DNA of 45,926 bases from a virus, in UHGV virus genome UHGV-0253013. One strand, given 5' to 3'. Shown piece by piece: positions 1-45,926 of the stretch. Within the stretch, counting starts at the first letter, position 1, and each line of letters opens with the position of its first letter. A model generated the notes under the pieces. The model made no database searches. It saw only the letters and a program-made list of their open reading frames with translations, and was not told the origin of the DNA. The position numbers and the translations under genes are program-made.

Positions 1-1273
1 CGACCGTCGTCGTGGTTGCTTGCAGTACGGCGGGGCAAAACGCACTTTGCGGTGGGCGGGTAAAGGCTTCCAACCACAGAACCTGGCGCGCGGGTACTAT
101 CACGATGATGAACTGGATAAAGGCATTTCAGCGTTACTTAAAGGCCGGGCACACCGCCGTTTTGATGTAGCCAAGCTAACGGCATCGACGGTACGTAGCT
201 GCATCATACCGGAAGTGGGGCATAAGTTTGTTGTTGCCGATTACTCTAACGTTGAGGGTCGTGGGCTTGCGTGGTTGGCAGGCGAAGAAACCGCGCTTGA
301 TACTTTCCGCGCCGGGTTGGATATTTATTGCGTAACTGCAGGTAAGATGTTTGGCATGGACCCCGACGATATTAAGAAAAACTTTAAGGAAATCAGACAG
401 ATAGGCAAAGCATGCGAACTGGGCCTCGGCTACGAGGGAGGCGTCGGAGCATTCGTTACGTTCGCCAAAAACTTAGGCCTCGACCTTATTGAGATGGCTA
501 AAACAATGGACGGTACATTCCCGGACCACATCTGGTCAGCCACCGCGAGAGGATATGAATGGGCGCGCATCCAGGAAGCCAAGCGCCCCCCGCATCCAGG
601 TGAGAAGGATGACCGACCATCGTATATTCTGGACAAGAAAGTGTGGCGCACCTGCGACGCAATCAAGCGTATGTGGCGCGAGTCACACCCGGAAACAGTA
701 GCGTTCTGGCGCGACCTCAAAGACGGTATTTTAGCCGCTGTAAGAAATCCGGGTCGTGAATTTTGGGCGGGGGCGCATCTGCGCAAGAATGGCGAGCGCG
801 CTATCCGAATCTGGAGAACAGTAGAAACCGATTCATCCGGTAGGAAGGTTCCCGGTTGGTGGTTGTGTATGGAGTTGCCGTCGGGCCGTATCCTCTCGTA
901 TCCAGGAATCGGCGTTAGCGTGACAAAAGAAACAGACGAAGACGGACGGGTAAACACGAATGTGCGAATCAAGTACCAAGGTGAAAACCAGTTAACCCGC
1001 CAATGGACTACCCTGTACACACACGGCGGCAAAGCCTGCGAAAACATTGTTCAGGCGCTGTGCCGTGATTTACTCGCATATGCGATGATTAATGTTGAGG
1101 GTGGCGGGTATCCCATCGTGCTTTCGGTACACGATGAACTGGTATGTGAAACTCCAGATACGCCGGATTACACGGTGCCTGAGCTGGAAAAATTAATGTG
1201 CGCGTTGCCTGAGTGGGCAGAAGGCTTCCCTCTTGTCGCGGAAGGTAGCGAAATGTACAGATATGCTAAATGA
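1..1273 (+). CDS. DNA polymerase, family A (Pol I/T7-like), C-terminal polymerase domain; 5' end lies outside the window
   Basis: Frame is open from window position 2. Palm motifs visible: VVADYSNVEGR (motif A-like), RQIGKACELGLGYEGG (motif B-like), SVHDELV (motif C). Confidence 0.85.
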   Translation, partial: DRRRGCLQYGGAKRTLRWAGKGFQPQNLARGYYHDDELDKGISALLKGRAHRRFDVAKLTASTVRSCIIPEVGHKFVVADYSNVEGRGLAWLAGEETALDTFRAGLDIYCVTAGKMFGMDPDDIKKNFKEIRQIGKACELGLGYEGGVGAFVTFAKNLGLDLIEMAKTMDGTFPDHIWSATARGYEWARIQEAKRPPHPGEKDDRPSYILDKKVWRTCDAIKRMWRESHPETVAFWRDLKDGILAAVRNPGREFWAGAHLRKNGERAIRIWRTVETDSSGRKVPGWWLCMELPSGRILSYPGIGVSVTKETDEDGRVNTNVRIKYQGENQLTRQWTTLYTHGGKACENIVQALCRDLLAYAMINVEGGGYPIVLSVHDELVCETPDTPDYTVPELEKLMCALPEWAEGFPLVAEGSEMYRYAK

Positions 1274-1788
1274 TGATGATGGGGTGGTTTATGAGAGATT
1301 TAATTAATTGGCATGACCATTTCTACTACGAACCTGACACGGGGAAGATACGATGGAAGTATTCCCCGAGACACAGTATAAACGCCGGAGACGAAGCCGG
1401 TAGCCCGAGTAAGAGGGGCTACATCTGTATCGTCGTCATAGGGGTTAGTTACAGGGCTAATCGTATCGCGTGGGAGATGTATAACAATGACCGTTTAGGT
1501 CCTGATGATGAAGTAGACCATATAAATCACATCCTGGATGATAATCGTGCATGCAACCTTCGGAAAGTATCGCGTACTGATAACAACCGAAACGCATCTC
1601 GGAGAAAAGATAACAAGTCGGGTCTCACAGGTGTGCACTGGAACGCACGGGCAGCTAAATGGAAAGCATGTATATTTGTTGGCGGTAAACTTATATTCCT
1701 AGGCCATTATGGCAATATATTTGACGCTGCTTGTGCACGGAAATCCGCGATTGTTCGCTACGGCTTTCATGAGAATCACGGAGGTTAG
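1270..1788 (+). CDS. HNH homing endonuclease with C-terminal AP2-like DNA-binding domain (paralog 1 of 3)
   Basis: EVDHINHILDDNRACNLRKV HNH motif; C-terminal SGLTGVHW...KWKA...LG.Y...AA.AR AP2-like fold. Start codon uncertain (run of Met at 1270; MRDL at 1291). Confidence 0.75.
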   Translation: MMMMGWFMRDLINWHDHFYYEPDTGKIRWKYSPRHSINAGDEAGSPSKRGYICIVVIGVSYRANRIAWEMYNNDRLGPDDEVDHINHILDDNRACNLRKVSRTDNNRNASRRKDNKSGLTGVHWNARAAKWKACIFVGGKLIFLGHYGNIFDAACARKSAIVRYGFHENHGG

Positions 1789-1789
1789 A

Positions 1790-1921
1790 ATGCTAGGTAA
1801 ACTGATTATCGCAGTACTGGCGGGATTTGCCGCCGGTGTCTACTGTCACGAGGGTCAATACGGCATGATGGTCGCCGTATTGTGTATGTTAGTAGCAATT
1901 TATCTGTGGGTGTTGGAATGA
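1790..1921 (+). CDS. small hydrophobic (2-TM) protein
   Basis: Internal ATG at 1790 preceded by GGAGG; product MLGKLIIAVLAGFAAGV... is strongly hydrophobic. Upstream part of the track ORF overlaps the HNH gene. Confidence 0.4.
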   Translation: MLGKLIIAVLAGFAAGVYCHEGQYGMMVAVLCMLVAIYLWVLE

Positions 1922-2002
1922 AAATTTACTGGTTCTACGAAGAAGACTGCCGAATCTGTCCGCGCTGCGGGATTGAGCACACGAAACGAGAGGGGTGCGT
2001 AG

Positions 2003-2290
2003 ATGAGTACGCCTGAGGGGCGCATCCAGAAATACGCAAAAGAGAGATTTGAGGTCATGGGGGGCCTTGTACGCAAATTGTCGTACGAAAATAGAGTGGG
2101 AGCCCCTGACCTGCTGGTAATTCTCCCCGGCGGCATCGTCTGGTTCGTGGAGGTTAAGAAAGACGAAAACACGAAGCCTGACCCGCACCAGTTACGTGAG
2201 CATGAGCGGATGCGTAAACGCGGTGCAAATGTTTTTGTCGTTGGGTCGTTTAAACAGGTTGACGACCTAATAGCGAACTATTATAGTTAG
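2003..2290 (+). CDS. VRR-NUC domain nuclease
   Basis: GAPDLLVILPGGIVWFVEVKKDE...HQ pattern typical of VRR-NUC (PD-(D/E)xK) nucleases; sits in the replication cluster. Confidence 0.7.
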   Translation: MSTPEGRIQKYAKERFEVMGGLVRKLSYENRVGAPDLLVILPGGIVWFVEVKKDENTKPDPHQLREHERMRKRGANVFVVGSFKQVDDLIANYYS

Positions 2291-15094: not shown

Positions 15095-15202
15095 TCTTTA
15101 ATCCTTTGGTTAAGAGGTTGTTGGTTAAAGAGAAATGCACCAGGCGGTAACCAACCGCTTTTCGTGCGCGACACTAGGTGCAAAATTATTCTAACACACT
15201 AC

Positions 15203-15231
15203 TTGCACACCCCAATATAATAGGGTACTAT
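15203..15231 (+). promoter_or_regulatory. sigma70-like promoter, class A (TTGCAC-N17-TACTAT) with embedded AATAGGGTACTATT inverted repeat
   Basis: TTGCAC at 15203-15208, 17-nt spacer, TACTAT at 15226-15231; about 40 nt upstream of the ATG at 15272. Near-identical copies at 25976, 36521 (-) and 37566 (-). Confidence 0.5.
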
Positions 15232-15271
15232 TCACTTACACCAACGTTATTAACTTAAATAAGGAATTAAA

Positions 15272-21556: not shown

Positions 21557-21715
21557 TTTTAAGCTCCTCAGGATGCGATGATTTTAGCGGCACGAAGTTG
21601 TGCCGGTAAGGCGTTAAGTTGAGTGCCTACCGCGTTAACCGCAGTCTGTGCGGACGTAGCAACCGCGGCAAGCCTTTTCCGGTCTTAGACATAATTTACC
21701 TCTTAGTAAATGAAA

Positions 21716-21735
21716 AGAGGGACCGAAGTCCCTCT
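21716..21735 (-). terminator. terminator hairpin downstream of the capsid gene
   Basis: AGAGGGAC-CGAA-GTCCCTCT hairpin; on the minus strand it is followed by TTTCATTT; 17 nt below the capsid stop. Confidence 0.5.
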
Positions 21736-21751
21736 CGATTATAGCTTAACC

Positions 21752-22801
21752 TTAAGACCCGACACCAGTTACCAGGAAGGCGATCGGTACGTGCTTACGC
21801 TCAACCACACGGTTCCAGTTGGAGGCGTTCGCCAGGTCCTGCCAGGAAGCAGAGCGCGGGGTAGTCTCGGTGCCGTTGCCGGTGATTACTGCGCTGGTGA
21901 AGCTGTAGCCCAGTGGGTGCAGCAACCAGGTCTTACGGGTCCACAGGGTTTCTACGCCGCCGCCGTTACCACGGGACGCTTCGCGCTCGTATTCCAGCGG
22001 GTTGGACGGAGAACCTTCGCCATAACCGATAGCGCCGTTACCGAAGATAATGGAGATGAACTTACGGCTCGTGGCAGTGCCGACTACGGTCATGCTGTCG
22101 TCAACAATCACGCGGTAGCCCTGGTAGGTGGCAAACATGGTGTTGTTGTCAGCGTCTTTGATGAAGTCAATAAGCTGCTGCTTACGCGCCTGTGCATAAA
22201 CGAAGCTGTGCATGGCGATAGCGCCCAGCACTTCACCGCCGTTGCCCATCAATGCATCGCCCATAGTCTGGGTAGCGTCGATGAACGCACCTGCGTCGAA
22301 ACCAAGAGTAGCGGACACGTCGATTACCATGTCGTTCTGCTCGTGGTACGCGTCGGTAGCGGCTACGTTGTCATTGTACAGACCAAGCGCAGTAGCAATC
22401 AGACGGCGTTGTGCCTGACGCTGCCAGAAGTTATCCAGGCGAGAAGCCACGGATTGCAGCGGATTCTGACTGGTCAGTTCGACAGTCAAATCCGCCTGAC
22501 CAAAACCTTCGTTCAGGTACGCAACGCGCGCCATCATCTCACCAGTCTGAACGTTACGAGGGGTTGCGATGTCCTGGTACACGTCGTTCGAGTAGTTAGG
22601 CTCGATGGAGGTGTCAATCGCTTTCCAGAAAGGAATATTAGCGATGTTGGACGGACCACGAGCAATCTCAGCAGCGTATGGAGTCGGGGTCAGAATACCG
22701 GACTGGAAGAACGCGGTTTTTTCTACCGGGTCCTCTGTCATATAAGACGCCAGGACCGGGATGTTGCCAGTTACGATATCGCCGATAGTGGTAATTGCCA
22801 T
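21752..22801 (-). CDS. major capsid protein
   Basis: 349 aa; GAGGAAA RBS; follows the scaffold gene and precedes the decoration and connector genes; terminator directly downstream. Confidence 0.7.
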   Translation of the reverse strand: MAITTIGDIVTGNIPVLASYMTEDPVEKTAFFQSGILTPTPYAAEIARGPSNIANIPFWKAIDTSIEPNYSNDVYQDIATPRNVQTGEMMARVAYLNEGFGQADLTVELTSQNPLQSVASRLDNFWQRQAQRRLIATALGLYNDNVAATDAYHEQNDMVIDVSATLGFDAGAFIDATQTMGDALMGNGGEVLGAIAMHSFVYAQARKQQLIDFIKDADNNTMFATYQGYRVIVDDSMTVVGTATSRKFISIIFGNGAIGYGEGSPSNPLEYEREASRGNGGGVETLWTRKTWLLHPLGYSFTSAVITGNGTETTPRSASWQDLANASNWNRVVERKHVPIAFLVTGVGS

Positions 22802-22803
22802 TA

Positions 22804-23505
22804 TTATTTCCTCAGGGCTTTAAGTTGCCGTTCAAATTCGGCAGGGTTCGATTTATACAGGGCTAAACGCTCTGCTTCACTCATGTCTTTAAACGCTGGT
22901 GCGGCCCCGCCGCCTTTGCTACCGGAAGCCCCGCCGCCGGAAGCTGCATTTGCTTTAATCAAATGCGAAAACGCTTTGTGTTCGCGCAGGTATTTGCGGA
23001 ACTGTTCCGGGTCAGTCGTGATTACGTTACCGTCTGCGCCGACAAACTTAGTAACCACGTCATCGCCTTCGAACTCAGTCTTAACGAACGGCGCAAGAAT
23101 GTCCACTGCTTCCGGGGTAATAAAGTCACCTGCGAAAGAGCCTAACACCGCTTTACGTTCGCTGCCGAGGATGCGCTCTGCCATTCTGGAGATGCGACCA
23201 TCTTTCTCGGCCAGCACCGGGTCATACTGGCTACGAATCGTTTTTTCGAACTCGTCCATCTTACCGGCGGCTTTTAACGCCTCCTGGTGTGCGCGCTGCC
23301 GTTCTTCTTCGGCCTCTTTTGCTTTACGGGCGGCTTCTTTCTTCTCCGCCAGCAATGCTTCCTGATTGGCCTTAAGCCCGGCAACTTCTTTCGCAATCAG
23401 CGCCTGAACTTCTTCAGCGGTGAACATTTTTGGCGCATCACCGCCGCCAGATTTATCTTCTGCTCCAGCTTCTTCCTGGAACGGATAGCGTAAAAAACGA
23501 TTCAT
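22804..23505 (-). CDS. scaffolding protein
   Basis: Ala/Glu/Lys-rich helical protein (EEERQRAHQEALKAAGK) upstream of the capsid gene. Start uncertain: track start 23559 is TTG; internal ATGs at 23505 and 23427. Confidence 0.55.
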   Translation of the reverse strand: MNRFLRYPFQEEAGAEDKSGGGDAPKMFTAEEVQALIAKEVAGLKANQEALLAEKKEAARKAKEAEEERQRAHQEALKAAGKMDEFEKTIRSQYDPVLAEKDGRISRMAERILGSERKAVLGSFAGDFITPEAVDILAPFVKTEFEGDDVVTKFVGADGNVITTDPEQFRKYLREHKAFSHLIKANAASGGGASGSKGGGAAPAFKDMSEAERLALYKSNPAEFERQLKALRK

Positions 23506-23587
23506 AGTCAGTATGTCCCCTGGACGTTTGAATCCGGGCCACCCGGATTTACATGTCAAGAATAAATTATTCCAACATGCAAGGCAA

Positions 23588-25931: not shown

Positions 25932-25975
25932 AAGTCCTCCTGTAGTATCGCCAGTGTACCGCATAAAAATAATAT

Positions 25976-26004
25976 TTGCAGACACCAACATAATAGGGTA
26001 CTAT
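25976..26004 (+). promoter_or_regulatory. sigma70-like promoter, class A (TTGCAG-N17-TACTAT)
   Basis: TTGCAG at 25976-25981, 17-nt spacer containing ATAATAGGG, TACTAT at 25999-26004; upstream of the ATG at 26032. Confidence 0.5.
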
Positions 26005-26031
26005 TCAGTTAACTTAAACAGGAGACGAAAG

Positions 26032-26193
26032 ATGAAATTAGTAAAAAGAATTACCGTAAACATTAACACAAGTTCGAAAAACGGAGACAAACGTAAGTTC
26101 CGCCGTAAAATGCGCCAAATCGCTAAACTCGACTACATCTTCGGGGAAACGATTGCACTCGCAGTAGGCGCCGCACGCAACTGGAGGCGTTAA
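26032..26193 (+). CDS. small basic protein (53 aa)
   Basis: ATG at 26032 preceded by GGAG; first gene of the rightward insert upstream of the YhhQ-like gene. Confidence 0.4.
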   Translation: MKLVKRITVNINTSSKNGDKRKFRRKMRQIAKLDYIFGETIALAVGAARNWRR

Positions 26194-26194
26194 T

Positions 26195-26659
26195 ATGATG
26201 TACTTTGTGTACATAGGCGCGATATGCGCCGCCAACTTTTCGGTATCCGTTTTCGGTCCGTGGGCAACTCCTATAAACGCTTTTGTTCTTATCGGTCTTG
26301 ATTTTGTGATAAGAGATAAGTTGCATGAAAGAATCGGTGTGCGAAAAATATTTATACTCATAGTTGTTGCGGGGGTAATAAGTTACGCCATTAACCCTGC
26401 AACGGGTAAGATTGCCTCTGCAAGTGTGGTGGCATTCGCATTTGCTGCGTTGGTAGACGCGATTGTGTACCAGTTGCTTATTAACCAAAAGTGGCTAGTA
26501 AAGTCTAACGTCAGTAACACAGCGGCATCCGCTGTTGATTCGTTTATTTTTCCTTTAATCGCCTTTGGGGCTTTCATGCCGCTTGTAGTTCTCGGGCAAT
26601 TCGCCGCTAAAGTTATCGGGGGCGCTACCTGGTCACTCCTGTTGAGGAAAGTTAAATGA
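26195..26659 (+). CDS. yhhQ: YhhQ-like membrane protein (7-deazaguanine precursor transporter family), short form
   Basis: Multi-TM protein; segments KSNVSNTAASAVDSFIFPLIAFG and ASVVAFAFAALVDAIVYQLL resemble remembered E. coli YhhQ motifs (no alignment run); adjacent to a DpdA-like gene. Confidence 0.55.
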   Translation: MMYFVYIGAICAANFSVSVFGPWATPINAFVLIGLDFVIRDKLHERIGVRKIFILIVVAGVISYAINPATGKIASASVVAFAFAALVDAIVYQLLINQKWLVKSNVSNTAASAVDSFIFPLIAFGAFMPLVVLGQFAAKVIGGATWSLLLRKVK

Positions 26660-27390
26660 CAGTACACTACCACGGCGGCCCTATTTGGGGTGGGGGTGAA
26701 CTTATAAAAGCGTTGTACAGAGGGGGAGGTGCTCTGGTGTCCTATGCGCGTCCAGACCAGATACGAAAGATAGCCGCCATGAGATGTAAATTAGTACTGG
26801 ATAACGGTGCTTTTTCAACGTGGAAGAAAGCCCCGGAAAACATAGACTGGAGTGCACACTGGGCAGGATATTATGATTTTGTTGGTGAGTGGTTCAGCCG
26901 TATTGAGTGGTTCATAATACCTGACGTTATCGAAGGTTCCGAGGAGGAAAACGACGCGTTAATAGAAACTGTGCCGGATTGGTTAATGCCCAAGGCTGTC
27001 CCGGTGTGGCATAGTGACGAGAGTATAAGAAGACTGATAAAACTATGCAGGAAGTTCCCTCGAGTTGCTATAGGCTGCTGCGGCCCACACAGGGCTATAC
27101 GTTCTAAGTCGTGGGAAAAAAGAATGGATCAGGCGTTTAATGCGGTTTACAGAAACCGGAAACTAGATGTAAAACTACACGGACTTAGAATGCTGGATGG
27201 AAGGGCGTTAAGCCGCTACCCTTTTGATAGCGCAGACAGCACAAACGTAGCTATAAATGTACCAAAAACGAAGGCAAGACTGCCTAACATAACCGATAAA
27301 CTACACCGCACAGCTATAATGCGGCACACGATAGAAATGGTGAAACCACCCTCGGTTGGTGAATGGTTATTTAAAACTAAGGCCCCATAA
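26656..27390 (+). CDS. dpdA: DpdA-like transglycosylase (candidate 7-deazaguanine DNA-modifying enzyme)
   Basis: 244 aa, translationally coupled to the YhhQ-like gene. Call rests on a remembered resemblance to short phage DpdA/TGT-like proteins (YHGGPIWGG, LVLDNGAFS, FIIPDVIEGSEEEND) and on context. Confidence 0.5.
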   Translation: MTVHYHGGPIWGGGELIKALYRGGGALVSYARPDQIRKIAAMRCKLVLDNGAFSTWKKAPENIDWSAHWAGYYDFVGEWFSRIEWFIIPDVIEGSEEENDALIETVPDWLMPKAVPVWHSDESIRRLIKLCRKFPRVAIGCCGPHRAIRSKSWEKRMDQAFNAVYRNRKLDVKLHGLRMLDGRALSRYPFDSADSTNVAINVPKTKARLPNITDKLHRTAIMRHTIEMVKPPSVGEWLFKTKAP

Positions 27391-27406: not shown

Positions 27407-28874
27407 ACTCCTGCTGTTGTGCCGACTGCGGAATCTCCCCCTCAACCTGAGTAACAGCACCTAACGGCATCGGCGCGTCTTCGATAGCGTTCTGAATGTC
27501 CTCGTCAGTCCAGTCAATTACACCTGCCTTGCGCAACGCAGCATAATAAGCGGTCGCTGGCAGCAGACCGGCGTTAATATCTGCCATCCACTGAGCACGG
27601 TCCTGCGCTGTCATCGGTTGCAGGAAGAACTCCATATTCAGCTTGAACTCAATCTCTGTGTCTCCACGCAATCCTAGCATCGCCGCTACCCAGCGCAACG
27701 CATCAGTATACGCCATGCTTACGTTACGTGCGATTGTCGCCATAACGGATGTATCAGCACCGCGTTGCAGACGGGCTGATTCGGCGGTGATTTGCTGCGT
27801 CGGGGTGATAAGCTGAGCGCCAATCTGAATGGCCTGATTCTCTTTATCCAGCATGTTCTGTTTGGCGAGGTTATTTTCTCCCGCCTGAACCAGAAACGCA
27901 TTGCCGCCGTAGCCAATGTTATGGCCTGAGCGCGACCCCATGCGCACGCCGTGAGGGTTGGCTTCTTTCCACTGTTCCATGCTCATGTTCTCGCCGGGGG
28001 CTATGAACAGAGTGGGCTGGCCTACAACGAAGCTGGACTCCTCATTGTCTGCGCTGTTGCGGAAATGCCCAATATTAAGCTCAGCCAACGGCAGCAAAGG
28101 TGCATCGTCAATGGTTGCATCGTTGTTGCTTGCACCAATGAACGTGAACGGGATTTTGCCGCGTAACTGTTCGCCAAGTTCCGGGAATATTTCGATTACT
28201 TCACCCTGAGCGCAACCTTCAGCGTCGAAGCGGTAAATGCGCTGGCGGTAGCGCCCGTCAATCAAATCTAGAACGCGGTATTGCTCACCGAACTTTGTTT
28301 CGAACTCTGCACCCGGTTCTGAGTATTCCCATACCTCACGCAACACAACCATAGTCACGCGGTTAACTGAACCGACGCGAGTCAGTCGCCAGTTGATGAT
28401 GTTCTCTGCGGTATAGAATACGATGACCGGGTTTAATAATCCCGCGTTCTGTTCGGCTGCCGTTGCTGCGGCGGTCTCTGGCGCATCAACCAGCAATCCA
28501 CCACGACCAACCGAGTCAATCTCCATTAGCGTATCCTGCGCGTGCTGCCACAGCCCGACACCGGAACCGTCCGTATTGCGCAACAGGTATTCCAGTTCAG
28601 GAGGGATAATCTGTTCAGGGTCTTTGCGCATCACTGACCCCACCACCCCCGCCAGGGTACGTTTAGTGAAGTTGTAGCAGATAGCACCATTCTCGTATTC
28701 TTCCTGTCGCTGTGCTGCGTAGGTCGGGTCAGGCTCGTTCTTCCCGACGTTGCGCAGGTAGCGAATAAGGTCGCCCTCCAGCGAGTGGCGTACCTTCTGC
28801 CATTTATCGAAGTGGTGCAGCCATTCCCGGTGTTTTGTCTTAACACCCTGATTCTGACCGTTCATAGTTAACAT
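27405..28874 (-). CDS. portal protein
   Basis: 489 aa ORF on the structural strand directly after the terminase region; size and synteny. Confidence 0.65.
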   Translation of the reverse strand: MLTMNGQNQGVKTKHREWLHHFDKWQKVRHSLEGDLIRYLRNVGKNEPDPTYAAQRQEEYENGAICYNFTKRTLAGVVGSVMRKDPEQIIPPELEYLLRNTDGSGVGLWQHAQDTLMEIDSVGRGGLLVDAPETAAATAAEQNAGLLNPVIVFYTAENIINWRLTRVGSVNRVTMVVLREVWEYSEPGAEFETKFGEQYRVLDLIDGRYRQRIYRFDAEGCAQGEVIEIFPELGEQLRGKIPFTFIGASNNDATIDDAPLLPLAELNIGHFRNSADNEESSFVVGQPTLFIAPGENMSMEQWKEANPHGVRMGSRSGHNIGYGGNAFLVQAGENNLAKQNMLDKENQAIQIGAQLITPTQQITAESARLQRGADTSVMATIARNVSMAYTDALRWVAAMLGLRGDTEIEFKLNMEFFLQPMTAQDRAQWMADINAGLLPATAYYAALRKAGVIDWTDEDIQNAIEDAPMPLGAVTQVEGEIPQSAQQQE

Positions 28875-29029
28875 AGATATAGACCCTCGGGTATGGGTGT
28901 CAAAAGCCTAATAAAAATTAGGTTGCAAGTCACCAGAAACTCGCTACTGCGAGTTTTACTTGCACCGGGCTGGCGGTCAATATATCTTATCATTAAGCAG
29001 ATAAAAATGAATTGTTGGAGGGGATACGT

Positions 29030-30409
29030 ATGGGCAGAAGAATAACTGAAGAAGAAATCAAAAACCGGTTAGCTATGTTTGGGTTTAAATTGGTTGAATA
29101 TGGCGGGTCGCAAGTAGCAAAATCCGTTATAAAATGCCCCAATGGACACGAGGAATTGAAGTCGCTTAACACCTTCACGGCTAATGGTGTGCGCTGTAAA
29201 TCTTGCGCTGCTGCTGAAAGGAGTCTGGCGTACAGCACCGACGAGACCGAAGCGAGAAGGATAGTCGAGGACATGGGGTATTCGCTGATAAAATACGGCG
29301 GCAATTTGTACCGCAAAAAATCTACCGTCCAATGTGCAAACGGTCATGTGCGCGAAGTTCGCATAGGAAATATGGTTAAGGGTCATCGCTGCAAAAAGTG
29401 CGTGGCGGAAGCAATGTGTTTGGCGGAAGACGTGGTTAACACCAGACTACCAGATGGGGTCAAGATGGATTTTTACTGCGGCAACACGCGGGGGCTTAGT
29501 CTATTTTCTTGCGAAAAAGGGCACTCGTGGTCCGCATCCGTGAATAACGTAGTGTCTCAACAAACGAAATGTCCTAAATGCTCTAATAACGTAAGTGGTA
29601 TGGAAAAAGAAGTTCTGTCGTTTATCCGCGGAGTATACCCAGGTGTTGTCAATACGTCCGTACGGTCGCTTATCTCGCCGTTTGAGCTGGACATAGTATT
29701 GCCGGAGATTAAGGTGGCCATAGAATTTAACGGCATCTATTGGCATTCCGAGGCGAATGGTAAACACCGTAACTACCACATAAATAAGAGATTAGCGTGT
29801 GAGAAACTTGGGTACAGGCTGATAAGCGTACGAAGCGACCTTTGGTTAGAGAAGCGAGAGCATGTTGAGCGCATTTTGAAGAACGCGGTAGGGGTACGTA
29901 CTGTGTCTATTTTTGCCAGAAAATGTCGTGTGGTAGAGATAGCCAACAAAGACGCATTCCAGTTCTGTGAGGACAATCACATCCAGGGTGGGACAAAGGC
30001 TACAAAAGCGTATGCATTACTTCACGCTGGTGAGGTGGTTGCGGTAATGACTTTGGTACATTGGCGCCGCAAGGACTCATGGGAACTGGTGCGATATTGC
30101 ACCAGTACGTCCGTGCCCGGTGGCCTAAGTAAGCTGTGGAAACATGTGACGCAAGAAAACAACATTAAGCAAGCGTTCACTTATACCGACCGTGACCTTT
30201 TCACCGGTGCATCTTACGCAGAAGCTGGGTTTATATTTGATAGCTGCTCCGTAGGGTTTCGCGTTGTCGTAGGAACTCGTACAGAATCCCGCCAGAAATG
30301 GGGCAAAGCTCCCGAGGGTCTTACCCAAACAGAGTGGTACGAACGAGAAAAAGTGTCGCGCATATGGGATAGCGGTCAGGATAAGTGGGAATGGGTTAAA
30401 GGGGCATAA
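29030..30409 (+). CDS. putative homing endonuclease: three Zn-ribbon-like repeats plus DUF559/Vsr-like nuclease domain
   Basis: ATG at 29030 after GGAGGGG. Repeats CPNGHEELKS...CKSC, CANGHVREV...CKKC, CEKGHSWS...CPKC; then ELDIVLPEIKVAIEFNGIYWHSE; opposite strand between portal and terminase. Confidence 0.5.
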   Translation: MGRRITEEEIKNRLAMFGFKLVEYGGSQVAKSVIKCPNGHEELKSLNTFTANGVRCKSCAAAERSLAYSTDETEARRIVEDMGYSLIKYGGNLYRKKSTVQCANGHVREVRIGNMVKGHRCKKCVAEAMCLAEDVVNTRLPDGVKMDFYCGNTRGLSLFSCEKGHSWSASVNNVVSQQTKCPKCSNNVSGMEKEVLSFIRGVYPGVVNTSVRSLISPFELDIVLPEIKVAIEFNGIYWHSEANGKHRNYHINKRLACEKLGYRLISVRSDLWLEKREHVERILKNAVGVRTVSIFARKCRVVEIANKDAFQFCEDNHIQGGTKATKAYALLHAGEVVAVMTLVHWRRKDSWELVRYCTSTSVPGGLSKLWKHVTQENNIKQAFTYTDRDLFTGASYAEAGFIFDSCSVGFRVVVGTRTESRQKWGKAPEGLTQTEWYEREKVSRIWDSGQDKWEWVKGA

Positions 30410-30420
30410 GCCCCTTTTTA
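30399..30420. terminator. bidirectional terminator
   Basis: AAAGGGGC-ATAA-GCCCCTTT hairpin then TTTACTT; between the rightward gene stop (30409) and the large terminase stop (30422). Confidence 0.55.
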
Positions 30421-30421
30421 C

Positions 30422-31672
30422 TTAAAGTGCGAAAGTCACCGGGATGTTGATTACTGGTTTAACCACCGGCATCTCGTAAACTACAGGATAGCCGAGAGCA
30501 TCCGCCATATGGTCAATGATGCCATCTTTAGCGGGCTCCCCGTTATCGTCGTATGCCTGCTGCTCCAGCGTCTTGGCTATCTCAGGACATAAGTGGTCGT
30601 TAACCCACAGCTTACCTTTTTCCAGCGCGGTATTCACTGCTAAAACACGGTCTTTAACCGGGGGGTTGGCGGATTTAGCGCGAACATCGAACCCGGCCTG
30701 CTGGAGTAAGGCGATGTCAGAGATTGACGCCGAGTTGGTTTTGCGGTTCTTGCCGCTGGCGTCCGGGTAAACGACGATGCGGTGGCCTTGCGACTTCCAC
30801 TTCTCAGTAATTACGCGCACGGTATCCGGCGTATCGAACAAGCCTTTCAGTTCTGCTACCGCGTGCCAGCCGTCTTTACGCTGCACATACACAGCGCTGG
30901 CGTTCTTCGTAACGTTGAAGTCCTGCCCGATGTACAGTGTGTCGCCTGGCTGGATTGTCTCTTTGCTGCGGTGCTTGTGGCGGTCGTAGGCGTAATACAC
31001 GCTGCCGGAGGTCAGGTTGACGAACTCACCGTTAAGGTACGCGTTAATCAGTTGCGCCGGGTAAGTCTCAGTCAGCGAGCTAATGTAATCCGGCGGCAGG
31101 AATCGCGCGTTCTCGTGTGTGGAGGCCTGCACCATCGAGTAACTCGGTGTCGGGTTCTCTTTGAACTTGGCGTAGACGAACTTGAACCCTTCAGGTGTCG
31201 TGGTGACGGAGATGTGGTTGGTTACTCCGGGGATAACCAGACGCATACGGGCGACGATTTTGTTCCATGCCAGTTCAGCTTTTTCTCGGCTCAGTACGTC
31301 CAGTTCATCCACGACCGCGGCGGCGATTTTGAAACCCACAATCGAACCGGGGTTATCCATAGAACGACAGATAACCGTTCCGAGCACCGTCTTACCGCGA
31401 GTAACCACGACCTCTTTGTCTCCGGATTTAACCAGCACATCGAGGCCGAGGAGGTTAGCCGCCTCTTCGAATGTCGGGTAGAAGATGTCGCGGATAGCTG
31501 GGTATGTCGGGCCGAAGTAGCCGAGGCGCGTACCGGGGTGCTTGAGCATAAACGTAAGCAGGTCCAGACAGCCGACAAATGTCTTGCCGCTGCCGAAACC
31601 GCCGACATAGGCTTTGTATTTGTTATCGCAATTCAGAAACAATGCCTGAGGGGCCGATAGCTGAATACTCAT
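30422..31672 (-). CDS. terminase large subunit
   Basis: Walker A GGFGSGKT near the N-terminus, 416 aa, directly downstream of the small-subunit gene. Confidence 0.8.
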   Translation of the reverse strand: MSIQLSAPQALFLNCDNKYKAYVGGFGSGKTFVGCLDLLTFMLKHPGTRLGYFGPTYPAIRDIFYPTFEEAANLLGLDVLVKSGDKEVVVTRGKTVLGTVICRSMDNPGSIVGFKIAAAVVDELDVLSREKAELAWNKIVARMRLVIPGVTNHISVTTTPEGFKFVYAKFKENPTPSYSMVQASTHENARFLPPDYISSLTETYPAQLINAYLNGEFVNLTSGSVYYAYDRHKHRSKETIQPGDTLYIGQDFNVTKNASAVYVQRKDGWHAVAELKGLFDTPDTVRVITEKWKSQGHRIVVYPDASGKNRKTNSASISDIALLQQAGFDVRAKSANPPVKDRVLAVNTALEKGKLWVNDHLCPEIAKTLEQQAYDDNGEPAKDGIIDHMADALGYPVVYEMPVVKPVINIPVTFAL

Positions 31673-32214
31673 TCCTCTACCTCGCCCATGTTCGTTGTTA
31701 CGATTTTACCTACAGGCTCCGCAACACTGAAAACAATCTCGGTCGGTGCTATTTCTTCGGTGGATTCAACCGGTTTCTCTTTGCTAAGGCCAAGCTTAGC
31801 TGCGGCAAACGTAGCAGAGATACCCGCAGCCCCTGTCTCTGTGAAGTACGCCTCTTCCAGCGCCTGCGCCGTTTCATAGGCTTCTGCAAATGCGGGAATC
31901 TCGCGCAGCCACAGCTTAATAATTGGGATAGTGACGCCGATGTGTAAGGCGAAGCGGGCCAGTGACGGCGGTTTATCCTGAATCAGCGGGCGTTCGTCAC
32001 CCTTGGATGTAGGCACGAGTTCCCACGACGAGCGGTCGAAGAAGCGAATCAGTTCGTCGCAATAGTCCGGGTCCCACAACGCGGCGGAATTACGGGATGA
32101 TTGATAAAGGCTCTGTTTACCGCGCGGTCGTTTACGGCGACGGTTTGCGCTAACAGCTTCTTCATGTGCAGCTTGCACCACCTCTGGCGATGGCTGCTTG
32201 AGTTTCAGCTTCAT
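31669..32214 (-). CDS. terminase small subunit
   Basis: Basic N-terminal region; ATGA-coupled to the large subunit. Start moved to the ATG at 32214 preceded by AAGGGGA. Confidence 0.5.
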   Translation of the reverse strand: MKLKLKQPSPEVVQAAHEEAVSANRRRKRPRGKQSLYQSSRNSAALWDPDYCDELIRFFDRSSWELVPTSKGDERPLIQDKPPSLARFALHIGVTIPIIKLWLREIPAFAEAYETAQALEEAYFTETGAAGISATFAAAKLGLSKEKPVESTEEIAPTEIVFSVAEPVGKIVTTNMGEVEE

Positions 32215-32386
32215 AGAATCCCCTTGCATATGCGTCTGACCATCAGAGCGCACCAGACGCGCCCTACGCGTCTAAAGGGATTATATAAGGGGATTGGGCG
32301 GGATGTACAGAAAAGCCCTCAGTAGAGGGCTTGTATCAGTTATATAGGCCGTGTCGTGGTGCTCTTTTACCGTCTCCGCCGTAATG

Positions 32387-36359: not shown

Positions 36360-36520
36360 CAGCTTCACCCCTTTTCCCATCCACCCCGACTAGCAGCGAT
36401 TTAGTGTCGCCGTCGCACACCGAAGTGCTACCCATTATTTCGTAAGCGTCTACCAGTTCGCCTAAAGTCCAGCTACCGTACCAGCCCATCTTCTGTCTCT
36501 CCTCTCGTTTGTGTAAATGA

Positions 36521-36549
36521 ATAGTAGCCTATTCTATCTTAGTGTGCAA
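36521..36549 (-). promoter_or_regulatory. sigma70-like promoter, class A (TTGCAC-N17-TACTAT, minus strand)
   Basis: Minus-strand read CTTGCACACTAAGATAGAATAGGCTACTATTCA; the -10 overlaps an AATAGGCTACTATT inverted repeat. Confidence 0.5.
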
Positions 36550-36706
36550 GTAAATTTTATTGGTGTTTGTATTGTTGCATCTCCTGTAATAGTCGCTTCT
36601 ATTGTTGCGTTTGGTGGAAGTGTCGCTTTTTGACGACACTAATCTAAAGTTGTACGCTGCTACACAGCAGCGTAAGTCACTCAGTAAAATCTCAAACTAT
36701 TGAACA

Positions 36707-37540: not shown

Positions 37541-37565
37541 TCCTCTGTCTCATTTCGATAAGTGA

Positions 37566-37594
37566 ATAGTACCCTATTATATTGGGGTGTGCAA
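37566..37594 (-). promoter_or_regulatory. sigma70-like promoter, class A (TTGCAC-N17-TACTAT, minus strand)
   Basis: Minus-strand read CTTGCACACCCCAATATAATAGGGTACTATTCACTTA, matching the 15203 copy over about 35 nt. Confidence 0.55.
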
Positions 37595-37821
37595 GAGAAT
37601 AGTTACGTTGCCGTTGTGATTCTTCGGGGAAGGTTGTGCCTTTATTCTTATTACTTGGTAACTAAAGGGCAGGCCTTAAGCCTGCCCAATAATCGTTACA
37701 TTTTTACGGTTGCGAATCTACGGCACATTAAGAAACAGTAGATATTTCAGCGGGTTACTTCTTTAAATGAGATTTAGATACACTTATCCTTAAACCCCAA
37801 GGCAAGCATCTCAGCTGTCTG

Positions 37822-42243: not shown

Positions 42244-42286
42244 TTATCTCGCGGCCTTCGGGCCGCTTTAACTGAGGGTCGGAATA

Positions 42287-42502
42287 ATGAGTAACGTATA
42301 CAAAGTAATAAACGAACAAATAGTTGTAGAAATAAGTGACTCATATGTGGGTTGTCAGCGATTCTTTGTTTTGAATGGTGCGTGGCGCGGGACTCTTGAC
42401 TATGCCGCTGGCGAATATTGGGCGGACATGTACCCAACCGATAAAACGGCGGTACATACAATTCGTCCCGCCGTTAAAGGTGAATTTGCGCCGTACTACT
42501 GA
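42287..42502 (+). CDS. hypothetical protein
   Basis: ORF preceded by the conserved leader ACTGAGGGTCGGAATAATGA. Confidence 0.4.
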   Translation: MSNVYKVINEQIVVEISDSYVGCQRFFVLNGAWRGTLDYAAGEYWADMYPTDKTAVHTIRPAVKGEFAPYY

Positions 42503-42717: not shown

Positions 42718-42986
42718 TTTACCAACTCTACCGCGCCGTCGACAGGCGGGACAACACAGAGGCACTATGGCTGTTGCGTGCGCCGTCCGGAGCGCACCAG
42801 ATGGAAGAGATGGCTTACTTAGGCAAAGTACCGCGGCCTAAAGATATAGGCCGTCACGTGTCACAGATTAAGCGCACGACTTTCGCCAAACCTGACTTTT
42901 ATGTCTTCGAGTCTATGTATGGGTGGGCTATGCTTTGTGATCATAAGACACGACATTTAATCGACCAGTGGGAGAACAGGGTATGA
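42714..42986 (+). CDS. hypothetical protein
   Basis: ATGA-coupled ORF upstream of the DUF2800-like gene. Confidence 0.4.
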   Translation: MIYQLYRAVDRRDNTEALWLLRAPSGAHQMEEMAYLGKVPRPKDIGRHVSQIKRTTFAKPDFYVFESMYGWAMLCDHKTRHLIDQWENRV

Positions 42987-44224
42987 TTTTAAAAGAACGC
43001 GGTGGTAATAACGATGTGCACGCCCTGCTGTCGCCGTCTGGTGCTAAAAAGTGGCTGAGTTGTGCCGCGTCACTGGCCTGTGAAAAAGGTATTCCTAACA
43101 CATCCGGTAAATCCGCCGTTACAGGAACCGCGTGCCACACTATAGCTGAGGTCCATCTTAACCAGTACATCAAAGGCACTGCGTTGCCGTTAGAGCGTGA
43201 AGTCGGCGCTTACGTGCTGGATGAGGGCAGAGGCCAGATTAAGGCACTAATCGGTCCGATGAAAGGCGCGGTACTTATTACGGCGGACATGATTGAACAG
43301 GTGCGCAAGTACACCGACTACTGCAAAGCGATTATAGATGTAGCGACTTACGCTAAGCTGGAAATGCGCGTCAATCTTACTGAGGTATTGCATCCGGGGT
43401 ATGAAGGCGTTGAGACGTTCGGGACTGCTGACCTTGTTGCCGTACAGGAACTGGCTAACACAGACGAACATATTCTCATTATCGGCGACCTGAAAACAGG
43501 ACGGCATCGTGTCGAAGCGAAAGAAAACAAGCAGCTTATGCTTTACGCTCTCGGTGTTTATCGCCGACTCAAGAGGCGTTATAACATCACCGTGGTTCGT
43601 CTGGTAATTTTCCAGCCGTGCGCTGGTGGTGCGTCGGAGTGGGACATCTCGGTTGAAGGCCTTGAACTGTTCGCTAAGTTTGCACAAAAACGAGCACTGT
43701 TAGCGCTCGATGCCTATTCCCGCGGCAAGAAGAACCTGAAAGCGTCTGACTTTAAGCCGTCGGTCGATGGTTGTCAGTGGTGTCGGTTCTCTGAACAATG
43801 CGCCGCGCGTACAAAAACCGTTAACGCTGTACTGGCGGAAGAACTGGAGGACGACTTTGCGCTGGAACTGACGCCGGAGCAACTTGTAGCTGAGTATGAG
43901 AAGTTGCCGTTGTTGCGCCAGCACATCGACAAGGTTGAGAAAGCTATGGCTGCCGCGCTGCATTCCGGTAAGAAAGTGCCGGGGTACAAACTGGTAGAAG
44001 GACGCCCAGGTAATCGTGCGTGGAAAGACGCGGAGAAAGTTGCTGGCAAGTATGGCATAGCGCTAATGAAGCAAGTGCTCATGACGCCAACCGAAGCTGT
44101 TAAAGTCATACCGGAAGATGAACTGAAAGACTTCATTACCCGTAAGCCAGGAGCGCCATGTGTCGCAACGGCAAACGACAAACGTCCTGAGTGGAATCGG
44201 GTTAGTGAAGAAGATTTAGAATAA
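42968..44224 (+). CDS. PD-(D/E)xK nuclease, DUF2800/Cas4-like
   Basis: N-terminal HALLSPSGAKKWLSC is the DUF2800 signature; C-terminal Cys cluster CQWCRFSEQC; sits upstream of the DUF2815-like and polymerase genes. Confidence 0.65.
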   Translation: MGEQGMILKERGGNNDVHALLSPSGAKKWLSCAASLACEKGIPNTSGKSAVTGTACHTIAEVHLNQYIKGTALPLEREVGAYVLDEGRGQIKALIGPMKGAVLITADMIEQVRKYTDYCKAIIDVATYAKLEMRVNLTEVLHPGYEGVETFGTADLVAVQELANTDEHILIIGDLKTGRHRVEAKENKQLMLYALGVYRRLKRRYNITVVRLVIFQPCAGGASEWDISVEGLELFAKFAQKRALLALDAYSRGKKNLKASDFKPSVDGCQWCRFSEQCAARTKTVNAVLAEELEDDFALELTPEQLVAEYEKLPLLRQHIDKVEKAMAAALHSGKKVPGYKLVEGRPGNRAWKDAEKVAGKYGIALMKQVLMTPTEAVKVIPEDELKDFITRKPGAPCVATANDKRPEWNRVSEEDLE

Positions 44225-44228
44225 AGTG

Positions 44229-44257
44229 TTGACACCTGAATAGTTAGCTATTATAGT
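44229..44257 (+). promoter_or_regulatory. sigma70-like promoter, class B (TTGACA-N17-TATAGT) with embedded operator-like inverted repeat
   Basis: TTGACA at 44229-44234, spacer CCTGAATAGTTAGCTAT, TATAGT at 44252-44257; same architecture as the 41198 copy. Confidence 0.55.
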
Positions 44258-44311
44258 TCTAATCACTGGCCTGGCAGCTTCCAGGAGTAAACTGAAAAGC
44301 GAGAAATTAAG

Positions 44312-44938
44312 ATGGGAATTAAACTGAATCTGCGTAAAGTAAACACTGCATGGGTTAACGTATTCGAACGCGAAAAAGACCGTGAAAACGATGATGGCTC
44401 CATCACTAAAGGCCAGTATAGCGCGACTATCATCCTGCCGCCTGACCACGCTCAAATCGATGCACTCTACGACACTGTTTACGCTGTAGTTGAAGAAGCG
44501 TTAGGCGCAGCTGCTGCCGAGAAATGGATGAAGTCCAACTACGGCGAAGGTAAGCACATGGATAAATGCGCGATTAAAGACATTGCTGAGCGTGATAACC
44601 CGTTTGAAGACTTCCCAGAAGGCTTCTACTTCAAAGCGAAGGCGCAGAAGCAGCCGCTGATTGTAACCTCTAAAAAAGGTGAGACTCAGGTGGAGCAGGA
44701 CTTCAACGTAGACGGCGAACAGATTGAAGGCGAACAGGTTTACAGTGGCTGTGTCGCTAACGTAAGCGTCGAAATCTGGTTCAGCCAGAAATATAAAGTT
44801 CTCGGGGTTAACCTGCTGGCGATTAAGTACGTCGGTGAAGGTAAAGCGTTCGGCGGTTCTAAAGTCGCCGCAAGCGTCGACGACCTGGAAGACGACGAAG
44901 AAGATGAAGCACCGCGCCGCGAACGTCGCCGCCGTTAA
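44312..44938 (+). CDS. DUF2815-like protein (putative ssDNA-binding protein)
   Basis: 208 aa with acidic C-terminal tail (DDLEDDEEDEAPRRERRRR); placed between the DUF2800-like nuclease and the polymerase. Confidence 0.55.
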   Translation: MGIKLNLRKVNTAWVNVFEREKDRENDDGSITKGQYSATIILPPDHAQIDALYDTVYAVVEEALGAAAAEKWMKSNYGEGKHMDKCAIKDIAERDNPFEDFPEGFYFKAKAQKQPLIVTSKKGETQVEQDFNVDGEQIEGEQVYSGCVANVSVEIWFSQKYKVLGVNLLAIKYVGEGKAFGGSKVAASVDDLEDDEEDEAPRRERRRR

Positions 44939-44981: not shown

Positions 44982-44997
44982 CTAAGGGTTGAAAATA

Positions 44998-45926
44998 ATG
45001 AGTTACCTGTTCTTAGACTTTGAAACATTCTCCGAAGCCGATTTAAAGAAAGTCGGCTCCTACGCTTACGCCGAACACCCGACTACCGAAGTGCTTATCT
45101 GCACATATGCTTTTGACGACGAGCCTGTGCGGGTATGGGATTGCACCGACGGCAGCGACATGCCGGGTGATTTGCACCGCGCACTGCGCCGCCTGGTTAA
45201 GCCGAACAGTCGTATTAAGATGGTGTGGCACAACGGCTCAATGTTCGACAGGCTCATCATGAAACACTGCTGGGGCTTTGATATTCCCGTAAGCAACACC
45301 ATTGATACGATGATTTGGGCGTTTCGTCACGCGCTGCCGGGTTCACTTGATGCGCTGTGTGAAGTGCTTGGCGTGTCTGCTGACAATGCAAAAGATAAAC
45401 GCGGCAAGGCGCTGATTCAGCGTTTCTCTAAACCGACACCGAAGAATTACAAAATCCGCCGCTACACCGCAGAAACACACCCGGACGAGTGGGCGCTGTT
45501 CATCAAGTACGCCGTGAGCGACATCACTGCGATGCGTGAAGTCTTCCATAAGCTGCCGCGTTGGGGTAACTCTGAGTTCGAAGACCGTGTACTGGAACTG
45601 GACCAGTTAATCAACGACCGCGGGTTTAAGGTTGACGTTGCACTGGCGGAAGCCGCTATTGAAGCCGTGGAGAAACACAAAGCGCAGTTACAGGAGGAAG
45701 CCCAACGCAAATACGGCGGCTCGCTTACTGGTAAGGACTTTCTGCCGATTCTTCGTGAACTCGCCCCTGCACACCGCATACACAACGCACAGAAGTCGAC
45801 GCTTAACGACCTGCTGGCGGACGATGATTTACCGGACGACGCACGCACAATTATCGAAATGCGCCTGGGGGCAGCGTCCACTGCATCAACGAAATATAAC
45901 CCGCTGCTGTTAGGTCGCTCTTCGGA
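44998..45926 (+). CDS. DNA polymerase, family A, N-terminal 3'-5' exonuclease domain; 3' end lies outside the window
   Basis: ATG at 44998 after the leader ACTAAGGGTTGAAAATAATGA; LFLDFETFSEADL is an Exo I-like motif; frame still open at the last base. Confidence 0.8.
   Translation, partial: MSYLFLDFETFSEADLKKVGSYAYAEHPTTEVLICTYAFDDEPVRVWDCTDGSDMPGDLHRALRRLVKPNSRIKMVWHNGSMFDRLIMKHCWGFDIPVSNTIDTMIWAFRHALPGSLDALCEVLGVSADNAKDKRGKALIQRFSKPTPKNYKIRRYTAETHPDEWALFIKYAVSDITAMREVFHKLPRWGNSEFEDRVLELDQLINDRGFKVDVALAEAAIEAVEKHKAQLQEEAQRKYGGSLTGKDFLPILRELAPAHRIHNAQKSTLNDLLADDDLPDDARTIIEMRLGAASTASTKYNPLLLGRSS

What the first reader, a model, noticed from the sequence alone, without database searches (positions are those of the whole stretch)
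44998..45926. DNA polymerase gene is split across the window ends in phase: window may be one unit of a circularly permuted genome
The exonuclease half of a family A polymerase runs off the 3' end and the polymerase half enters at the 5' end on the same strand. Joining the ends gives codon GAC from bases 45925, 45926 and 1, and the 5' ORF continues in that frame from position 2 with no stop. The joined protein would be about 733 aa, a plausible full-length phage Pol A. A window from a linear contig with a second polymerase copy cannot be excluded from here.
Basis: inference. Interest (0 to 1): 0.45.

Follow-up and report, generated by a model that had tools for sequence, protein, structure and literature searches.

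The report
Phage genome record cut inside polymerase gene
The window is one complete copy of a Kagunavirus-type E. coli phage genome whose sequence record was opened in the middle of its DNA polymerase gene, so the "split gene" comes from how a circular assembly was written out, which is ordinary.

Summary
An ORF starts at ATG 44998 and runs off the 3' end after 309 codons plus GA. Base 1 completes codon GAC, and the frame runs on to a stop at 1271-1273, giving a 2202-nt, 733-aa family A polymerase. The window is a complete genome of a new species-level Kagunavirus (Guernseyvirinae). In phage fFiEco02, window bases 45926 and 1 align to adjacent bases (29856|29855) inside one annotated 733-aa polymerase CDS that is 98.4% identical. 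A 1400-nt query across the joined ends aligns as one ungapped piece in most listed phage records. The whole window maps collinearly onto exactly one turn of that circular record, and there is no second polymerase copy. Two other Kagunavirus records (phage 26, ORH_001) are also cut inside this gene, at different positions. Physical circular permutation through headful packaging is inferred from published work on relatives. It cannot be shown without reads. The finding is a linearisation artefact of a known genome type, so interest is low. Side observations are more interesting: a helicase intein, a DpdA-like plus YhhQ-like cassette not seen in related phages, and several homing-endonuclease insertions.

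The parts
44998..45926 (+). 5' part of the DNA polymerase gene (codons 1-309 plus the first two bases of codon 310). It holds the 3'-5' exonuclease domain.
   Evidence: sequence and translation; weak Pfam exonuclease match at residues 60-186; 98.4% nt identity to fFiEco02 record 30785..29856.
1..1273 (+). 3' part of the same DNA polymerase gene (third base of codon 310, codons 311-733 and the stop). It holds polymerase motifs A, B and C.
   Evidence: DNA_pol_A at 371-476, 62.4 bits; motifs; aligns to fFiEco02 29855..28610, directly adjacent to the other fragment.
30422..31672 (-). Terminase large subunit. This is the enzyme that would cut concatemers, so it decides what the real virion ends are.
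   Evidence: Terminase_6N 3.8e-21, Terminase_6C 5.7e-11, Terminase_3 1.3e-07; phrog_2 1e-54; 91% nt identity to fFiEco02 TerL, record 1..1252.
31669..32253 (-). Terminase small subunit.
   Evidence: phrog_3064 'terminase', 6.2e-73. The fFiEco02 homologue is annotated by its depositors as similar to P22 gp3. That similarity was not re-tested here, and phmmer against PDB found nothing.
42968..44224 (+). PD-(D/E)XK/Cas4-like exonuclease. Inferred partner in the recombination that would circularise terminally redundant DNA.
   Evidence: phrog_69 exonuclease, 2.8e-119. The role in circularisation is inference.
44312..44938 (+). Gp2.5-like ssDNA-binding/annealing protein, immediately upstream of the polymerase gene.
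   Evidence: phrog_112, 1.1e-42. In one search the identical protein sits upstream of an uninterrupted 723-749-aa DNA_pol_A gene in seven other contigs; in an eighth (L012) the contig ends inside that gene.

Best explanation
The window is a complete, single-copy genome of a virulent siphovirus of the Kagunavirus group (Guernseyvirinae). Its assembly closes into a circle and was written out as a linear record starting at an arbitrary base that falls inside the family A DNA polymerase gene. The gene is not split in the phage: joining base 45926 to base 1 restores one 733-aa ORF. The likely biology behind the circular assembly is inferred from relatives and not shown here. The terminase would package concatemeric DNA by the headful, so virions would carry terminally redundant, circularly permuted molecules. 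Reads from such a population assemble into a circle with no natural end. After injection the redundant ends would recombine to re-form a circle or concatemer, probably with help from the phage exonuclease and Gp2.5-like annealing protein, so every essential gene is intact wherever a given virion's ends fall.
For: 1. The frame arithmetic and the 733-aa joined ORF hold.
2. In fFiEco02 (circular record), window 44997-45926 aligns to 30785..29856 and window 1-1246 aligns to 29855..28610. These are adjacent bases inside one CDS, 28583..30784, of 2202 nt. The proteins are 722/734 identical without gaps.
3. A 1400-nt query spanning the joined ends matched 293 phage records. In 24 of the 30 listed it aligns as a single piece across the join. 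The six two-piece matches span about 2.3 kb, which fits the 299-aa insertion shown in fPoEco01 well downstream of the join.
4. The whole window is collinear with one full turn of fFiEco02, and almost nothing is hit twice (0.04% of the record).
5. There is no second polymerase copy, no terminal overlap and no long internal repeat.
6. There are precedents. The linear record of Escherichia phage 26 is cut in the same gene at another position (1..2011 and 42272..42462, summing to 2202 nt), and its depositor notes a 'circularly permutated genome'. Joining its ends gives one tblastn match to residues 1-733 at 97.8%. The ends of ORH_001 abut exactly at window 45407|45408.
7. The junction lies at many different coordinates and on both strands in related records, so record starts are a matter of convention.
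8. Seven further metagenomic or genomic contigs with the identical upstream SSB gene carry an uninterrupted 723-749-aa polymerase gene.
9. Published work supports headful packaging in this group. For Jerseyvirus it rests on PhageTerm, a circular-like restriction map and a diffuse PFGE band (PMC10783031). The TerL of K1G-like phages clusters with headful packagers (PMC5582158). PhageTerm found no termini in Kagunavirus fBC-Eco01 (PMC9825357).
Against: No reads or parent record were available, so physical permutation and terminal redundancy are not shown for this phage. The parent contig was not found by exact-protein look-ups or by an exact junction 46-mer in IMG/VR. One paper on a Kagunavirus describes the terminase in cos terms, but as generic text without data (PMC9825357). 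The window's terminase subunits have no sequence-detectable relative in the PDB, so the packaging class was not tested independently here.
Confidence: 0.95

Rival explanations
1. The window is a piece of a longer linear contig (a concatemer, prophage or misassembly) that happens to begin and end in two different polymerase gene copies.
Against: The two fragments are exactly complementary (residues 1-309 and 311-733, with codon 310 formed by the join) and abut at adjacent bases in relatives. The window covers one full turn of a related circular genome once, with no duplicated segment. At 45,926 bp it is close to the 40.8-45.7 kb genome lengths of the related records. tblastn finds no further polymerase fragment.
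Confidence: 0.02
2. The window ends are true, fixed physical termini of the virion DNA (cos, DTR or a strongly used pac end) that lie inside the polymerase gene. The gene would then be reconstituted only after circularisation.
For: Two other Kagunavirus records besides the window also break inside this 2.2-kb gene. This could hint at a preferred end region.
Against: The three break points differ (gene nt 410|411, 929|930 and 2011|2012). Other records break all over the genome. With dozens of arbitrarily opened records and a gene occupying about 5% of the genome, a few such breaks are expected by chance. PhageTerm found no termini in a Kagunavirus (PMC9825357), and the sister genus packages by headful (PMC10783031). 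There is no terminal repeat in the window.
Confidence: 0.02
3. The polymerase is really made as two polypeptides, a naturally split gene.
For: The break falls between the exonuclease and polymerase domains. The family does harbour mobile insertions in replication genes.
Against: There is no stop codon, start codon or intervening sequence at the join. The joined reading frame is continuous and gap-free against a 733-aa single CDS in fFiEco02 and against phage 26 once its ends are joined. Other relatives are annotated with one continuous polymerase CDS.
Confidence: 0.01

Closest known systems
Escherichia phage vB_EcoS_fFiEco02 (MT711523.1), Kagunavirus, Guernseyvirinae
   Same: The gene order is the same around the whole circle. 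The polymerase is 733 aa with 98.4% identical residues, and about 74% of the window aligns, mostly at 77-98% nt identity.
   Different: That record is deposited as circular and opened at the terminase large subunit gene, so its polymerase gene is intact. It lacks the window's helicase intein, the HNH ORF after the polymerase, the DpdA-like/YhhQ-like cassette and the 465-aa endonuclease ORF between portal and TerL.
Escherichia phage 26 (MZ832314.1) and Escherichia phage vB_Eco_ORH_001 (PV656001.1): GenBank records of the same genus also cut inside the polymerase gene
   Same: Both are linear records whose two ends carry complementary fragments of the same polymerase gene, and the fragments join without gap or overlap. 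The depositor of phage 26 attributes this to a circularly permuted genome.
   Different: The cut positions differ (gene nt 2011|2012 and 410|411, against 929|930 in the window). In ORH_001 the split gene was left unannotated altogether.
Headful (pac) packaging phages with circularly permuted, terminally redundant DNA, e.g. P22, P1, and Jerseyvirus K47 (PMC10783031)
   Same: The assembly has a circular map with no natural ends. The terminase pair is homologous to that of the sister genus, for which headful packaging has experimental support.
   Different: No pac site, read-end or restriction evidence exists for this particular phage, so the packaging mode is inferred by relatedness only.

Membership tests
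Family A DNA polymerase (Pol I-like) with 3'-5' exonuclease | Pfam DNA_pol_A match above the curated threshold | tested here: met
   PF00476, 62.4 bits against a 34.3 cut-off, residues 371-476; phmmer matches to Taq, Bst and Klenow structures (best 6.8e-08).
Family A DNA polymerase (Pol I-like) with 3'-5' exonuclease | Catalytic motifs A (DYSxxE), B (RxxxKxxxxGxxY) and C (HDE) | tested here: met
   DYSNVE at 390, RQIGKACELGLGY at 442 and VHDE at 686. All lie in the fragment encoded at window 1-1273.
Family A DNA polymerase (Pol I-like) with 3'-5' exonuclease | 3'-5' exonuclease domain (DnaQ-like, Exo I DxE) | tested here: inconclusive
   PF01612 scores 22.4 bits, just below the 23.6 cut-off. 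The D7-x-E9 motif is present. The fFiEco02 homologue is annotated as DnaQ_like_exo.
Kagunavirus / Guernseyvirinae genome | Genome-wide nucleotide similarity and collinearity with members of the genus | tested here: met
   In some searches the best hits are named or classified Kagunavirus wherever a classification was seen. One search shows collinearity over one full turn with fFiEco02. The best half-genome match is 90.9% identity over 78%. This is close to the 70% genus threshold and below the 95% species threshold (thresholds as applied in PMC9409062), so it is a new species-level member. An exact VIRIDIC value was not computed.
Circularly permuted, terminally redundant (headful-packaged) phage genome | The sequence closes into a circle: the two record ends are contiguous | tested here: met
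   adjacent bases in relatives, and single ungapped alignments across the join.
Circularly permuted, terminally redundant (headful-packaged) phage genome | No fixed termini in virion DNA (random read starts, circular-like restriction map, diffuse PFGE band) | not testable with these tools
   This needs reads or wet-lab data. It is reported for the sister genus Jerseyvirus (PMC10783031), and PhageTerm found no termini in Kagunavirus fBC-Eco01 (PMC9825357).
Circularly permuted, terminally redundant (headful-packaged) phage genome | Terminase large subunit clusters with those of known headful packagers | not tested
   Only the domain family was established here (Terminase_6N/6C). The clustering was published for K1G-like phages of the same genus (PMC5582158).
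Naturally split (two-polypeptide) polymerase gene | A stop/start pair or an intervening element between the two halves | tested here: not met
   the frame is continuous, with no extra or missing residue against a single 733-aa CDS.

The most novel reading that the evidence does not exclude
The break at 45926|1 might not be arbitrary. It could mark a preferred physical end of packaged DNA, for example the first headful cut of a pac series, lying inside the polymerase gene. That would explain why three Kagunavirus assemblies break within this one gene.
Probability: 0.03. Interest if true: 0.3.

Novelty: already known. Interest (0 to 1): 0.07.

Why it matters
The main value is practical. Recognising that the window is a complete circular-map genome lets the polymerase gene be annotated correctly as a join across the origin. 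A related GenBank record (ORH_001) lost the gene entirely because of the same kind of cut. It also shows that the whole gene content of the phage is in hand. No new biology follows from the split itself. The phage is a new species-level Kagunavirus. Its unusual cargo includes a DpdA-like/YhhQ-like pair that suggests 7-deazaguanine DNA modification, a helicase intein and several homing endonucleases. That cargo is more worth following up than the split gene.

Tried and rejected
- An exact 46-nt junction pattern in IMG/VR viral contigs gave no hit.
- Exact-protein look-ups meant to find the parent contig (HNH ORF, intein-bearing helicase, DpdA-like protein) found nothing on record. The parent record and its reads therefore could not be inspected.
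- phmmer of TerL and TerS against PDB sequences gave only chance-level hits, so the packaging class could not be tested by sequence against solved terminases.
- A search for terminal overlap or a direct terminal repeat in the window found none.
- I considered whether three records cut in the same gene signal a hotspot and rejected the idea. The cut sites differ, and the number is about what is expected if a good share of the roughly 100 related records are arbitrarily opened and the gene covers about 5% of the genome. That share is my own rough estimate, not a count.
- I considered a real split gene or a second gene copy. Both are rejected on the continuous alignment and the single-turn collinearity.

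Full report
**Observation**

The sequence shows ATG at 44998-45000, preceded by a terminator-like hairpin and an A-rich spacer. From 44998 to the last base is 929 nt, which is 309 codons plus GA. Base 1 is C, so the join gives GAC. The frame beginning at position 2 is open to TGA at 1271-1273.

Pfam gives DNA_pol_A above threshold in the C-terminal part and a near-threshold 3'-5' exonuclease match in the N-terminal part. Exo I and polymerase motifs A, B and C are all present.

**What the window is**

Both window ends hit the same group of phage records, which are Kagunavirus (Guernseyvirinae) wherever a name or classification was seen. These are small virulent E. coli/Salmonella siphoviruses of about 41-46 kb.

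In Escherichia phage fFiEco02 (MT711523, deposited as circular, 44,723 bp), window 44997-45926 aligns to record 30785..29856 and window 1-1246 aligns to 29855..28610. Window bases 45926 and 1 therefore correspond to adjacent bases of that genome. They lie inside one annotated DNA polymerase CDS (28583..30784) of 2202 nt, or 733 aa, the same length as the joined ORF. The proteins share 722 of 734 ungapped positions, including the stop, and the sequence around the join (GRSSDDRRRG) is identical.

A synthetic 1400-nt query made of the last 700 and first 700 bases matched 293 phage records. In 24 of the 30 listed it aligned as a single piece across the join. The six two-piece matches span about 2.3 kb of record, which fits the 299-aa insertion shown in fPoEco01 about 410 nt downstream of the join.

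The whole window is collinear with fFiEco02 through exactly one turn of the circle. It starts at record base 29855, passes through 1/44723 at window 31672/31673 and ends at 29856. Only 0.04% of that record is hit twice.

tblastn of the joined protein against the window finds only the two fragments. The window has no terminal overlap and no repeat longer than 47 nt.

**Precedents**

Escherichia phage 26 (MZ832314, linear record) carries two misc_features, 1..2011 and 42272..42462, which together make 2202 nt. They are labelled 'DNA polymerase; circularly permutated genome'. Joining its ends gives one uninterrupted tblastn match to residues 1-733 at 97.8%.

Escherichia phage ORH_001 (PV656001) ends at the equivalent of window base 45407 and starts at 45408, with no gap or overlap. 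In that record the polymerase gene is not annotated at all.

So three independent assemblies of this genus are cut in the same 2.2-kb gene at three different places (gene nt 410|411, 929|930 and 2011|2012). In other records the same junction lies at many different coordinates on either strand. Several of the listed records place it near 28-30 kb on the minus strand, as fFiEco02 does, whose record opens at the terminase gene. Roughly 100 records are named Escherichia phage or Kagunavirus, and the gene covers about 5% of the genome. If a good share of those records are arbitrarily opened, which is my own rough estimate, a few cuts in it are expected.

Because nearly all of such a genome is coding (77 CDS in 44.7 kb in fFiEco02), any arbitrary opening will usually split some gene.

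Seven further contigs from public assemblies encode the identical upstream Gp2.5-like protein followed by an uninterrupted 723-749-aa DNA_pol_A gene; an eighth contig ends inside that gene.

**How it most likely works**

Shown:
- The sequence has a circular map.
- The polymerase gene is intact on that map.

Inferred:
- The circular map arises because the phage packages concatemers by the headful. This would give terminally redundant, circularly permuted virion DNA, whose reads assemble into a circle that software or depositors open at an arbitrary base.

The window encodes a terminase pair (TerL 30422-31672, Terminase_6N/6C; TerS 31669-32253, phrog_3064) about 91% identical in DNA to that of fFiEco02. 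Published support from relatives is as follows.
- For the sister genus Jerseyvirus, PhageTerm, a circular-like EcoRV pattern and a diffuse PFGE band indicate headful packaging (PMC10783031).
- The TerL of K1G-like phages of this genus clusters with headful packagers (PMC5582158).
- PhageTerm found no obvious termini in Kagunavirus fBC-Eco01 (PMC9825357).
- The practice of trimming assembler overlaps and finding genes that span contig ends in such genomes is described explicitly in PMC9409062.

The PD-(D/E)XK exonuclease (42968-44224) and Gp2.5-like annealing protein (44312-44938) just upstream of the polymerase are plausible agents of end-to-end recombination after injection. This is inference.

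**What could not be done**

The exact junction 46-mer is absent from IMG/VR. Three window-specific proteins are not on record in the assembly index. TerL and TerS have no sequence-detectable relatives in the PDB. Physical permutation for this phage therefore stays inferred.

**Comparison and novelty**

The split gene is a representation artefact of a known genome type in a known genus, and the same artefact is already annotated as such in GenBank. The phage itself appears to be a new species-level member. The best match for the 25-kb half 21000-45926 is 90.9% identity over 78% of it. This does not bear on the finding. Interest is low.

**Things seen in passing**

1. The SNF2 helicase gene (2509-4974, 821 aa) contains a 347-aa Hint/LAGLIDADG intein (residues 34-380; Cys1, His-Asn, Thr+1) inserted in the Walker A motif GSGK|TSST. 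Without the intein the protein is 474 aa, the same length as the fFiEco02 helicase.
2. An HNH endonuclease ORF (1270-1788) overlaps the polymerase stop codon. It is covered in only 3 of the 309 matching records.
3. A two-gene cassette sits between the head-morphogenesis and portal genes: a VUT/YhhQ-like protein (26195-26659) and a DpdA-like transglycosylase (26656-27390, phrog_887, 9.5e-84). It has no DNA-level match in 50,697 phage records. The best protein match is 67%, to Pectobacterium phage PEAT2, which carries the same gene pair. This suggests 7-deazaguanine DNA modification using imported or host preQ0, as discussed for DpdA-only phages in PMC6884629.
4. A 465-aa homing-endonuclease-like ORF (29012-30409, + strand) is wedged between the portal and TerL genes.
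5. There are four copies of a promoter-like repeat, TTGCAC-N17-TACTAT.
6. Relatives such as fPoEco01 carry a 299-aa intein-like insertion (C...HN|C) in polymerase motif B, which the window lacks.
7. A 551-codon stop-free antisense frame lies opposite the capsid genes. It is annotated as a CDS in ORH_001 but is broken in fFiEco02.

Noticed in passing
window 2509-4974 (+); intein about 2608-3648: The SNF2-type DNA helicase gene carries a 347-aa intein (Pfam Hom_end_hint 2.4e-21 and LAGLIDADG_3 7.1e-07). It has Cys1, a C-terminal His-Asn and Thr+1, and is inserted in the Walker A motif (GSGK|TSST). Without it the protein is 474 aa, the length of the intein-free fFiEco02 helicase.
   Followed up: partly
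window 1270-1788 (+): An HNH endonuclease ORF (172 aa, HNH_3, phrog_99 9.1e-60) starts inside the polymerase stop codon (ATGA overlap). Only 3 of 309 matching phage records cover this stretch, so it looks like a mobile homing endonuclease next to the polymerase gene.
   Followed up: partly
window 25973-27390 (+): A cassette of a VUT/YhhQ-like membrane protein (26195-26659) and a DpdA-like queuine tRNA-ribosyltransferase homologue (26656-27390, phrog_887 9.5e-84) lies behind its own promoter-like repeat, between the head-morphogenesis and portal genes. It has no DNA match in 50,697 phage records. The best protein match is 67%, to Pectobacterium phage PEAT2, which has the same gene pair. It suggests 7-deazaguanine DNA modification, which I did not see in any other record of this phage group.
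   Followed up: partly
window 29012-30409 (+): A 465-aa ORF matches homing/HNH endonuclease families (phrog_559 2.5e-106, phrog_3339 5.9e-73; Pfam DUF4379 zinc finger). It is inserted on the opposite strand between the portal and terminase large subunit genes, which lie 12 nt apart in fFiEco02 and ORH_001.
   Followed up: partly
window 15202-15238 (+), 25973-26011 (+), 36506-36552 (-), 37559-37595 (-): Four copies of a 36-47-nt repeat read as a sigma-70-like promoter (TTGCAC, 17 nt, TACTAT), and each points into a block of genes. One pair is 100% identical over 37 nt. The copy at 25973 is conserved in other Kagunaviruses, where different cargo genes (sliding clamp, RusA-like) are annotated at or next to it.
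   Followed up: partly
L003 1272-4370 (Escherichia phage fPoEco01). By alignment geometry alone (about 0.9 kb extra within the polymerase match), KMB36, FSL SP-101 and SXAU_B4 probably have it too.: In some relatives the polymerase gene is 1032 aa because of a 299-aa insertion after residue 447, inside motif B (RQIGKA|CELGLGY). It starts with Cys and ends His-Asn, followed by Cys, which are intein hallmarks, but Pfam found no Hint domain at E<0.01. The window lacks it.
   Followed up: partly
L005 (PV656001.1) 1-1781 and 43988-44456: The GenBank record of Escherichia phage vB_Eco_ORH_001 is also cut inside the polymerase gene. Its ends abut at window-equivalent 45407|45408, and the gene is not annotated at all there. 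This is a practical consequence of this kind of linearisation.
   Followed up: yes
window 21710-23365 (+): A 551-codon ORF runs antisense to the major capsid and upstream head genes (21752-23559, - strand). The same open frame exists in phage 26 and ORH_001, where it is annotated as a CDS in place of the capsid gene. It is interrupted in fFiEco02 (298 codons), so it is probably not coding.
   Followed up: partly
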